Of a stretch of 64,000 bases of DNA, positions 12,164 to 27,664 are shown piece by piece; the stretch's first letter is position 1; each line of letters starts with the position of its first letter. The DNA lies in contig CP166615.1 in assembly GCA_041937175.2 (NCBI GenBank), positions 1,216,001 through 1,280,000 on the forward strand, read 5' to 3'. A model generated the notes under the pieces. That model was not told the DNA's origin, searched no databases, and worked only from the letters and a program-made list of their open reading frames with translations. A program made the translations under genes and the position numbers. The stretch comes from Limnothrix sp. BL-A-16 (GTDB lineage: Bacteria; Cyanobacteriota; Cyanobacteriia; CACIAM-69d).

Positions 12164-12255
12164 GTTGATGTCGCTAACCGCCAGGTGGCCCTAATCCCAA
12201 GCTCAGTGATTTAGCTTGAAATTAAAAGCCACTGGAGATTAAAAACTGATTGAAA

Positions 12256-12897
12256 TTACTTGTTGGGCTGGGGAGTCATGCGCAGGTAAGGCTTGATTTC
12301 CGTCACGCCCTTGGGGAATTTCTGGCGAGCTTCCTCGGTCGGAATCGAGGGAACCACCACGCAATCGCCGCCATCTGTCCAGTCGGCGGGCGTAGCCACA
12401 CTGTAGTTATCGGTCAGTTGCAGCGAGTCAATCACACGCAACAGCTCATCAAAGTTGCGGCCGGTGCTGGCGGGATAGGTGATCGTCAAACGCAGCTTTT
12501 TGTTGGGATCGATGATGAAGACCGATCGCACCGTCAGGGTGTTACCGGTGCTGGAATTGGGGTGAATCATCCCGTACAGTTCCGACACTTTCTTATCTTC
12601 GTCGGCCAGAATCGGATAATTCAGGGTCGTGCTTTGGGTTTCTTCAATGTCGGCCGTCCAGCCATGGTGCGAATCTACGCTGTCAACGCTCAGGGCCAGC
12701 GCCTTCACATTGCGCTTGTCAAATTCACCCTTCAGTTGGGCAACGCGGCCCAGCTCGGTGGTGCAAACGGGGGTATAGTCCGCCGGGTGCGAAAACAGCA
12801 CCACCCAGCTATCGCCTGCCCAAGCGTAGAAGTCGATCGAGCCGTGGGTGGAAGCCTGCGTGAAATCGGGGACGGTATCGCCAAGTCTGAGAGTCAT
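12256..12897 (-). CDS. 1-Cys peroxiredoxin (Prx6 family)
   Basis: FSHPADYTPVCTTE, YPASTGRNFDE. Confidence 0.95.
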   Translation of the reverse strand: MTLRLGDTVPDFTQASTHGSIDFYAWAGDSWVVLFSHPADYTPVCTTELGRVAQLKGEFDKRNVKALALSVDSVDSHHGWTADIEETQSTTLNYPILADEDKKVSELYGMIHPNSSTGNTLTVRSVFIIDPNKKLRLTITYPASTGRNFDELLRVIDSLQLTDNYSVATPADWTDGGDCVVVPSIPTEEARQKFPKGVTEIKPYLRMTPQPNK

Positions 12898-12925
12898 GAT
12901 TCTTCGTTGGTCAATGATTAATTGA

Positions 12926-13092
12926 TTGACATCCTCCTCGCCCCAAAGGGTGAGGATTCCTCACCGCGCCTGAACCCAGCGAATCGGGCCGAGGTCGCTG
13001 AATGGGGTTGACGCTTCACAGGCCACCACTGGCGAACCAGTCTGACGCTGGCCTCCACGTCCGTTTAAAGTCTCGGACTGCCCGCCCGCGAC
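12926..13092 (-). ncRNA. Orphan tnpB 3'-tail / IS200-IS605 right-end (omegaRNA-like) module, copy 1
   Basis: Minus strand translates VAGGQSETLNGRGGQRQTGSPVVACEAST..., like a TnpB C-terminal tail, then GGAATCCTCACCCTTTGGGGCGAGGAGGATGTCAA; an in-frame TGA lies upstream, so no tnpB ORF. Confidence 0.7.
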
Positions 13093-13336
13093 GATGCATC
13101 AAACCAGTCAGGAGTGAATTTGCGGGCTGACGGGTCTGGGGGGCTAGAGGGGAGAGCGCCCGCAGATCATGATGCCACGAAACCCCAGTTTTCCGACCGG
13201 ATTTTCGATCTTTTTCACCCAACAGGCCCGCCAGCGGAATTCCAGGCGACAAATGCGGTTGATTCGGCTTGGCAGTTCCGCTGTAGCTAGGGCTTGTACT
13301 GCTGGAAAAATTAATGAAGCGCTTTTACGATTAGGC

Positions 13337-13404
13337 GTTCGGGTCATCCTAATCACAGCCCGGAGTAACGATCAGGTGTTCAGGTCATCCTAATCACGGC
13401 CCGG
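13337..13404. repeat. 27-nt direct repeat, period 41
   Basis: gttc(g/a)ggtcatcctaatcac(a/g)gcccgg twice. Confidence 0.75.
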
Positions 13405-13547
13405 GATGCGAATCTTGCGATCTGGATGTTCAGGATAGCAGGACTCTGTAGCGAAATTATCAGTCTTCGTAAATCTGCAATCCTTCCGGGGACAAACCGT
13501 AAAGTTCCGCAATGATCCTGAAATGTTCGCCATGCTTGCTTAAACCA

Positions 13548-26442: not shown

Positions 26443-26608
26443 GTCGCGGGCGGGCAGTCCGAGACTCGAAACAGACGCAGAGGTCAGCGCCAGCCTGGTT
26501 CGCCAGCAGCAGCCGATGAAGCGTCAACCCGTGGTCTAGTTGAGCAACTTTAGTAGTTGCTGAATTAGGGCTGGCAATCCCGCTCCGAAAATGTGGGAAA
26601 AACGTCAA
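26443..26608 (+). ncRNA. Orphan tnpB 3'-tail / omegaRNA-like module, copy 2, in the gap2 leader
   Basis: First 87 nt match copy 1 at 73 positions without gaps; translates VAGGQSETRNRRRGQRQPGSPAAADEASTRGLVEQL*; degenerate right end GGCAATCCCGCTCCGAAAATGTGGGAAAAACGTCAA. Confidence 0.68.
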
Positions 26609-26650: not shown

Positions 26651-27664
26651 GTGATTAGAGTCGCCATTAACGGTTTTGGCCGAATCGGTCGTAACTTCTT
26701 AAGATGCTGGTTGACCCGCCAAGATAGCCAGCTCGAACTGGTGGGCATTAACGATACGTCCGACCCCAAGACGAATGCCCACCTGCTCAAGTACGACACG
26801 ATGCTCGGCAAGCTAAATGCCGACATTCAGGCTGACGAAAATTCCATTACCGTCAACGGCAAAACGATCAAATGCGTGTCCGATCGGGATCCGCTCAAGT
26901 TGCCCTGGGCCGAGTGGGGCATTGACCTGATCATTGAATCGACAGGCGTATTTGTTAGCGAAGAAGGCGCTTCTAAGCACATCCAAGCCGGTGCCAAGAA
27001 AGTCCTGATCACCGCTCCGGGCAAGGGTGACGGTGTTGGCACGTTCGTGATGGGCGTGAACGACAGCGACTACGACCACGACAAATTCAACATCGTTAGT
27101 AACGCAAGCTGCACCACCAACTGCTTGGCTCCCGTGGTGAAGGTGTTGCATGAGAACTTTGGCATCATCAAAGGCACCATGACCACCACCCACAGCTACA
27201 CGGGCGACCAACGGTTGCTCGATGCGAGCCACCGGGATGTGCGTCGGGCCCGCGCTGCGGCCATGAACATTGTGCCCACCTCCACGGGTGCTGCCAAGGC
27301 GGTGGCCCTGGTGTTGCCGGAAATGAAGGGCAAACTGAACGGGATCGCGATGCGTGTGCCGACCCCGAACGTTTCGGTGGTGGACTTTGTGGCCCAGGTG
27401 GAAAAGAGCACGATCGCCGAGCAGGTGAACGAAGTGCTGAAGGCCGCCGCTGAAAACGGCCTGAAGGGCATTTTGGAATACAGCGATCTGCCCTTGGTTT
27501 CGTCGGACTATAAGGGAACCGATGCTTCCTCGATCGTGGACGCTAGCCTGACCTTGGTGCTGGGCGGCGACATGGTGAAGGTGATCGCTTGGTATGACAA
27601 CGAGTGGGGCTACAGCCAGCGCGTTGTGGACTTGGCGGAACTGGTTGCCCGCAAGTGGAAGTAG
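26651..27664 (+). CDS. gap2: NAD(P)-dependent GAPDH, Calvin-cycle type
   Basis: [35 protein letters not shown]; divergent from murC. Confidence 0.96.

What the first reader, a model, noticed from the sequence alone, without database searches (positions are those of the whole stretch)
12898..13092. Intact IS605-type right end without tnpB directly upstream of the peroxiredoxin start: candidate trans-acting guide RNA
Seen: the minus strand reads a TnpB-like tail (VAGGQSETLNGRGGQRQT...EAST) then GGAATCCTCACCCTTTGGGGCGAGGAGGATGTCAA; an in-frame TGA three codons upstream excludes a tnpB ORF. The following bases, TCAATTAATCATTGACCAAC, would be the guide and overlap the translation-initiation region. 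Inference: if loaded into a TnpB, processing would separate the leader from the mRNA, and the guide could target another locus. I saw no match to either predicted guide in this window.
Basis: partly seen in the sequence, partly recalled or inferred. Interest (0 to 1): 0.7.

Follow-up and report, generated by a model that had tools for sequence, protein, structure and literature searches.

The report
Stranded transposon guide RNA in leader
A jumping gene that once landed in front of a cyanobacterial peroxide-detoxifying gene has lost everything but its well-preserved guide-RNA end, which has no target we could find except its own empty landing site, so it is most likely a stranded leftover of a known kind.

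Summary
The element is 181 nt (window 13106-12926, minus strand): a 14-nt left-end stub, a complete TnpB omegaRNA scaffold and an IS605 right end. A relative's empty allele shows it inserted directly 3' of TGAC, the family's target motif, inside the inferred peroxiredoxin 5' leader. The left-end hairpin is gone and the genome has no TnpA, so it cannot move. A cognate, catalytically intact TnpB is encoded elsewhere, and all 19 core base pairs checked (pseudoknot included) are kept, so loading in trans is plausible. No motif-plus-guide target was found in four related genomes; the one viral hit is at chance level, while a positive control worked. Published TnpB trims only the 5' side, so it would not itself free the leader. 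The copy is one of 18 stand-alone hits in this genome, 8 of them just before start codons (gap, psaE, prx). Odd point: 1 change in 181 nt against a sister genome (sibling relics 36 in 794), but the low divergence extends into the flanks: constraint, or a recent sweep by homing. Stand-alone omegaRNAs and PATEs are known. The scan had not noted this before.

The parts
13169..13205 (-). Conserved host promoter block of prx (palindrome-like box plus extended -10-like hexamer); promoter role inferred from conservation
   Evidence: Near-identical in G002, G001, L046, L048 and recognisable in distant cyanobacteria 45-131 nt before the prx ATG; the sigma-70 consensus scan found nothing here
13111..13168 (-). 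Host part of the prx 5' leader upstream of the insertion
   Evidence: Aligns with the empty allele L048
13107..13110 (-). TGAC: TnpA target / TnpB TAM, retained at the left junction
   Evidence: Same position in empty allele L048; family TAM shown by left-end covariation and empty-site control
13093..13106 (-). 14-nt stub of the left end; the left-end guide and hairpin are deleted
   Evidence: 9 of its first 11 nt match, by eye, the linker that follows the left-end hairpin in the minimal PATE at G000:C1:3639780 (sequences); no left-end hairpin within 260 nt
13005..13092 (-). omegaRNA 5' core (stem 1, pseudoknot loop, stem 2, stem 3), former tnpB C-terminal tail
   Evidence: 19 of 19 checked pairs standard; 18 of the 19 supported across 33 family rows
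12961..13004 (-). Diverged central hairpin, 44 nt; variable or absent across the family
   Evidence: still folds as a hairpin
12926..12960 (-). IS605 right end: GAAT, subterminal hairpin with one two-sided C-G to T-A change, pseudoknot strand and terminal TCAA
12906..12925 (-). Predicted guide (host DNA; overlaps the translation-initiation region)
   Evidence: its positions 11-16 can pair back on the right end (pair probability 0.57)
12256..12897 (-). 1-Cys peroxiredoxin gene, 213 aa
   Evidence: Pfam AhpC-TSA and 1-cysPrx_C; NCBIfam PRK13189
26443..26608 (+). Second, older relic of the same family in the leader of a GAPDH gene (26651-27664); shared with G002 and G001, decaying

Best explanation
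A left-end-less remnant of a non-coding IS605 mini-element (PATE type), stranded in the prx 5' leader. Shown: an IS605-family element inserted 3' of TGAC without a target duplication, 28 nt before the ATG; tnpB and the left-end hairpin are gone; no TnpA is present. Inferred: it is transcribed from the host promoter as part of the prx mRNA; the scaffold can still fold and may be bound now and then by the cognate TnpB made elsewhere; the only site such a complex would cut is the element's own empty allele, which this genome lacks. It persists as a tolerated or mildly useful structured leader (cis), not as a guide aimed at another locus.
For: Empty allele with matching flanks, 150 versus 148 nt once the element is removed. 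TAM from left-end covariation in 14 of 17 listed loci, 3 being spurious matches. Guides of 3 of 5 G002-only copies hit TGAC-preceded empty sites in G000 with 0-1 mismatch, whereas the focal guide hits none. 18 of 20 model hits in G000 lack a tnpB and form a ladder of decay. The older gap-leader copy differs at 59 of 163 positions between G000 and G001, close to fourfold sites (48 of 159), without sparing family-conserved positions (p 0.14). No IS200 TnpA over cut-off in 4 of 4 genomes; the one Y1 hit is RAYT-like. RNA-library contigs from 3 studies run across leader, element and CDS.
Against: The copy is better kept than a plain relic: 1 change in 181 nt between G000 and G002 against 36 in 794 for five shared sibling relics (p 0.004) and 8.7% for non-coding DNA. 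Private changes spare family-conserved positions (1 of 57 against 9 of 67, p 0.016; but 10 relics were tested and it does not survive correction). Transcription start and strand are not shown.
Confidence: 0.6

Rival explanations
1. Protein-less homing cassette. Loaded in trans, the leader RNA cuts incoming or sister empty alleles (TGAC plus the 28 nt before the ATG); repair from the filled allele copies the element and nearby DNA. This needs no TnpA and no left end, and would explain a recent sweep through neighbouring lineages.
For: TAM retained exactly at the junction; core intact; a 407-nt low-divergence tract (12869-13275, 2 changes) surrounds the element and includes flanks that are not well conserved in L048 (1 in 226 outside the element). 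Such tracts are rare: 1 of 134 coding windows, and none of the 56 non-coding windows except two inside one stretch that turned out to hold a protein gene. TnpA-independent drive by TnpB is published for plasmids (10.1101/2025.02.20.638934) and discussed as non-restorative homing (PMC13565253).
Against: The one empty allele seen (L048) matches only 9 of the first 16 guide positions (counted by eye). Against the local upstream intergenic rate (11 of 332) the deficit is only p 0.04. Ordinary recombination or promoter-wide constraint gives the same tract. The guide can fold back on the right end and compete with the pseudoknot. Only two genomes and partial contig tables carry the test.
Confidence: 0.2
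2. TnpB-dependent riboregulation in cis: TnpB binds the scaffold in the prx mRNA, trims the 5' side, and either shields the initiation region 12-28 nt before the ATG or exposes the 3' part to host RNases, lowering peroxiredoxin output.
For: Scaffold directly abuts the initiation region; cognate TnpB present in G000 and, as full open frames, in G002 and G001; core selectively kept; 8 of 18 stand-alone hits lie within 60 nt of a sense start against 5 of 40 tnpB-attached loci within 80 nt (p 0.01, or 0.03 if the 70-aa psaE is left out).
Against: Sibling leader relics lose the TnpB-contact core and keep mainly the 3' hairpins, which fits tolerance or RNA stabilisation rather than TnpB control; no expression data for tnpB; leader enrichment compares different genomes.
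Confidence: 0.13
3. Domesticated trans-acting guide with a target elsewhere: chromosome, plasmid or phage.
For: Stand-alone omegaRNAs can work in trans (PMC10691335). One viral contig holds TGAC plus 14 guide bases (L054); one holds 18 guide bases without TGAC (L143). The gap-copy guide is 20 of 20 identical between G000 and G001 and has an 18 of 20 match at G000:C1:3631768.
Against: Both viral hits lie in AT-rich contigs and about one to three chance hits are expected (my estimate; collection size not given). The 18 of 20 match has no TGAC, and 31 of 657 comparable AT-rich 15-mers have a second genomic copy. Two-mismatch TAM+12-nt sites are not shared between genomes. The TnpB is not a nuclease-dead TldR type. 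Guide conservation is explained by the initiation region.
Confidence: 0.07

Closest known systems
Stand-alone omegaRNAs of OMEGA systems (PMC10691335, passages read, citing Altae-Tran 2021)
   Same: omegaRNA without effector or transposase, with a compatible effector elsewhere in the genome
   Different: Those are described as mobilised; this copy has lost its left end, cannot move, sits inside a host mRNA leader, and loading is untested
PATEs (PMC3119063; PATE-like elements in Meers et al., 10.1101/2023.03.14.532601; PATE-derived RNA in PMC4615843; passages read)
   Same: Non-coding IS605 derivative, no target duplication, carries an omegaRNA; true PATEs of the same family exist in G000 (C1:3639780, 2102563) and one subfamily occupies different sites in G000, G001 and G002
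   Different: Only one terminal palindrome is left, so it is a PATE remnant
ISDra2 TnpB / omegaRNA (PMC10097598, passages read)
   Same: Cognate TnpB matches ISDra2 TnpB chains at E 1e-75; terminal pseudoknot, stems and a dispensable flexible hairpin have counterparts
   Different: TAM TGAC rather than TTGAT; scaffold about 167 nt
Archaeal sotRNAs / Rfam HgcC
   Same: Weak match over the right end
   Different: 18.2 and 15.4 bits, far below gathering scores 50 and 88
TldR guide RNAs (as summarised in PMC13565253, passage read)
   Same: Fixed guide next to a host gene
   Different: No adjacent nuclease-dead TnpB and no TAM-flanked promoter target

Membership tests
IS200/IS605 element | Right end: GAAT guide, subterminal hairpin, terminal TCAA (IS608 rules recalled) | tested here: met
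IS200/IS605 element | Insertion 3' of a short target motif, no target duplication | tested here: met
   Empty allele L048; one allele only, 70 of 642 CDS differences from G000
IS200/IS605 element | Left-end guide and hairpin | tested here: not met
IS200/IS605 element | tnpA and/or tnpB gene inside the element | tested here: not met
PATE | Non-coding, derived from an IS605-type element | tested here: met
PATE | Palindromes near both termini | tested here: not met
   Left palindrome deleted
PATE | Mobilisable in trans | tested here: not met
   No left end; same single site in G000 and G002; no TnpA in 4 of 4 genomes
Stand-alone TnpB omegaRNA | Complete scaffold with pseudoknot | tested here: met
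Stand-alone TnpB omegaRNA | Compatible, catalytically intact TnpB in the same genome | tested here: met
   405-aa ORF, D-E-D motifs present by alignment; activity itself not tested
Stand-alone TnpB omegaRNA | Expressed as RNA | tested here: inconclusive
   Contigs from RNA libraries cover it; contigs show no strand, ends or level
Stand-alone TnpB omegaRNA | Loaded into TnpB and guides cleavage | not testable with these tools
   Needs pull-down or cleavage assay
TldR-type domesticated guide | Adjacent nuclease-dead TnpB and TAM-flanked target in a promoter | tested here: not met
Rfam HgcC / sot0042 | Score above gathering threshold | tested here: not met

The most novel reading that the evidence does not exclude
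A transposon reduced to a 181-nt RNA cassette that can no longer jump but still spreads: it borrows the host promoter, uses the peroxiredoxin mRNA itself as an untrimmed guide for a TnpB made elsewhere, and homes into empty alleles of neighbouring lineages, dragging about 400 nt of promoter and leader along; TnpB binding would also tie prx translation to the nuclease.
Probability: 0.2. Interest if true: 0.72.

Novelty: new member of a known kind. Interest (0 to 1): 0.37.

Why it matters
The biological role of stand-alone omegaRNAs is stated to be unknown (PMC10691335). This genome offers a graded natural series in the leaders of prx, gap, psaE and psbV, with one cognate TnpB, a known TAM and a real empty allele, so loading, homing without TnpA and effects on host mRNAs can be tested with ordinary assays. 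If nothing is loaded it is a tidy example of how IS605 debris becomes 5' leader structure.

Tried and rejected
Rfam: nothing at gathering level. Plasmid and phage DNA searches matched only the generic right-end hairpin or 54 nt of the core, never 80% of the element. Sigma-70 and terminator scan: none. Overall folding energy of 13106-12860 is not unusual (z -0.06), so stability alone is no argument. First idea that the gap-leader copy is under selection as an omegaRNA was dropped. A seeming left-end remnant in the gap leader proved to be host promoter DNA shared with G003. A left-end-like 10-mer at 13299 lies upstream of the promoter, lacks TGAC and occurs 6 times in the genome: not used. The raw test of focal versus one active copy (2 of 57 against 37 of 106) is inflated by family polymorphism and the central hairpin and was replaced. 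In one search the right-end pairs of the focal copy were scored out of register by the aligner; searches give the right register. One of the 32 'distant' rows used for conservation scores (L095) is a close relative. No joint skipping the element was listed in the 4 of 20 runs laid; contigs cannot show absence. Literature searches (top listings only) showed no report of left-end-less omegaRNAs in cyanobacterial leaders; supplements were not read and may list such cases.

Full report
Observation. The minus strand from 13092 carries the TnpB-like tail, the right-end hairpin and TCAA at 12926, then 28 nt, then the ATG of a 1-Cys peroxiredoxin. The in-frame TGA three codons upstream is there. The genome (G000, two contigs, 100% complete) has five tnpB genes; the 3' end of one, C1:672132-673346, matches the finding at 83% over 88 nt. 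That protein has 405 aa, scores as guided_TnpB, matches solved TnpB chains at E 1e-75, and shows the three acidic RuvC motifs in the alignment (motif assignment recalled). Its closest relatives (94-96%) come from records titled Limnothrix.

Boundaries. A metagenome-collection contig, L048, holds the empty allele: the same promoter block, about 57 nt of leader, TGAC, 28 nt, ATG. With the element removed, the focal leader is 148 nt against 150. So 181 nt (13106-12926) were inserted 3' of TGAC with no duplication. The 3' flank has diverged enough that its register could be shifted by 4 nt, and this rests on one allele. TGAC is the family target: among 17 left-end-like matches, 10 pair a CAAG guide with TGAC, 2 AAAG with TTAC, 2 GAAG with TCAC, and 3 are spurious. 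As a positive control, guides of 3 of 5 copies found only in G002 hit TGAC-preceded empty sites in G000; 0 of 9 copies from the more distant G001 did. Only 14 nt separate the TAM from the scaffold; they resemble the linker of the minimal PATE at C1:3639780, so the ancestor was probably a PATE that later lost its left hairpin (inference). No IS200 TnpA passes the cut-off in G000-G003; the single Y1 hit in G000 is RAYT-like. The element is immobile.

Position. The promoter block at 13205-13169 is near-identical in G001, G002, L046 and L048 and recognisable in distant cyanobacteria, 45-131 nt from the ATG in the 4 loci that a strict pattern caught among 22 scanned (the pattern missed the focal copy itself). 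The promoter role is inferred; the consensus scan found nothing. Four of 20 listed runs were laid. Single contigs from three RNA studies span leader, element and CDS, and run X1 has no depth outside 12228-13367. These contigs reach 110-190 nt upstream of the predicted -10, so the start may lie further up. Contigs show no strand or ends, and DNA can be present.

Scaffold. In 33 family rows the helices covary, and the focal copy forms a standard pair at 19 of 19 positions checked, including the four of the terminal pseudoknot; one of the 19 is not family-supported. The diverged central hairpin is variable or missing in active relatives. A model built from 25 tnpB-attached copies scores the focal copy at 117.8 bits. 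Against loading: guide positions 11-16 can pair with the right end (probability 0.57), which would compete with the pseudoknot.

Targets. No TGAC+guide site with a good seed in G000 (29,735 TGAC sites scanned); two-mismatch sites in G000-G003 are not shared. Viral scans gave 1, 0, 0 and 1 hits. L054 has TGAC plus 14 guide bases, enough in principle for a 12-nt seed, but lies in an AT-rich contig and one to three chance hits are expected by my estimate; L143 lacks the TAM. The gap-copy guide has an 18 of 20 match without TAM in an AT-rich island; 31 of 657 comparable 15-mers have a second copy.

Context. The model finds 20 hits in G000, 27 in G001, 26 in G002 and 1 in G003 (150 candidates scored per genome). 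18 of the 20 lack a tnpB; a few belong to another IS605 subfamily; 8 end within 60 nt of a sense start, among them gap, psaE and prx (starts read from ORF lists). Among tnpB-attached loci it is 5 of 40 (p 0.01, or 0.03 under the same 80-aa rule). The gap-leader copy is shared by all three genomes of the genus and absent from five family outgroups, yet it decays at about the neutral rate. The usual fate is thus slow decay with the 3' hairpins lasting longest.

The anomaly. G002 has the same insert with 1 change in 181 nt, against 8.7% for non-coding and 14% for fourfold sites over 84,885 compared bases and 36 of 794 for five shared sibling relics (p 0.004). Against the local upstream intergenic DNA it is p 0.04. 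The low divergence covers 12869-13275, with 1 change in 226 nt outside the element. Contig X5, another strain, has 24 of its 28 differences listed, none in the element. This fits constraint on the whole promoter-leader unit or a recent sweep such as homing with co-conversion; two genomes cannot separate them.

Mechanism. Shown: origin, boundaries, immobility, intact core, cognate TnpB, no second target found. Inferred: co-transcription with prx, occasional loading, cleavage limited to the empty allele. AmaTnpB processes only the 5' side and cleaves with a 3'-padded RNA (PMC10278001, passages and section 11), so the mRNA itself could serve as guide and TnpB would not free the leader. I give 0.6 to a stranded relic acting at most in cis, 0.2 to homing, 0.13 to TnpB riboregulation and 0.07 to a guide with another target.

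Comparison. It works like a stand-alone omegaRNA and descends from a PATE, but fails PATE membership (one palindrome) and is untested for loading. Stand-alone omegaRNAs acting in trans (PMC10691335), PATEs that encode them (10.1101/2023.03.14.532601; PMC4615843; PMC3119063), activity of TnpB with an omegaRNA supplied in trans (10.1101/2023.11.20.567912) and TnpA-independent drive (10.1101/2025.02.20.638934; PMC13565253) are in print; scaffold architecture is from PMC10097598. For all of these I read matched passages only, and no supplements. Seven searches listed no report on left-end-less copies in cyanobacterial leaders. Earlier scan notes held nothing on this element. Verdict: new member of a known kind, interest 0.37.

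Noticed in passing
window 26443-26608 (+); L136, L137: Relic in the GAPDH leader shared by all three genomes of the genus; scaffold decays near neutrally but the 20 nt after TCAA are identical in G000 and G001.
   Followed up: yes
G000:C1:3112059-3112226, 2520157-2520327, 1071418-1071587, 1931917-1932007, 3587212-3587450: Older relics of the same family in leaders of psaE, psbV and other genes; 3' hairpins and TCAA outlast the 5' core.
   Followed up: partly
G000:C1:3908959-3909230 (L149): An IS605-type omegaRNA relic followed directly by the 3' tail of the genome's other TnpB family, so that the first one's guide is the start of the second relic.
   Followed up: no
window 13169-13205 (-): Palindrome-like box upstream of 1-Cys prx conserved across distant cyanobacteria; regulator not identified (one search gave nothing useful).
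   Followed up: partly
window 13290-13299 (-); L048 upstream of the promoter: Left-end-like 10-mer with a small hairpin upstream of the promoter; L048 has similar hairpins there, perhaps an older relic.
   Followed up: partly
window 12910-12914 (-): A second TTGAC inside the guide, followed by 4 nt absent from L048 under one alignment; possibly a footprint of another insertion.
   Followed up: no
window 13325-13405: Tandem duplication of about 40 nt in the intergenic DNA, present in G002, single in L048.
   Followed up: no
G000:C1:3628987-3632266: AT-rich three-gene island (HTH regulator and two uncharacterised ORFs) not aligned to the G002 stretch fetched; holds the 18 of 20 match to the gap-copy guide.
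   Followed up: partly
G000:C1:1042454-1043605, 3503631-3504782, 3987726-3988877: Three near-identical tnpB copies of a second family with no transposase gene seen in the 700 nt upstream, plus stand-alone tails at 1149119 and 3738152.
   Followed up: no
L008 (G001) prx leader: A different insert in the same leader, containing a short palindromic repeat, relative to L046/L047; the prx leader seems to collect insertions.
   Followed up: no
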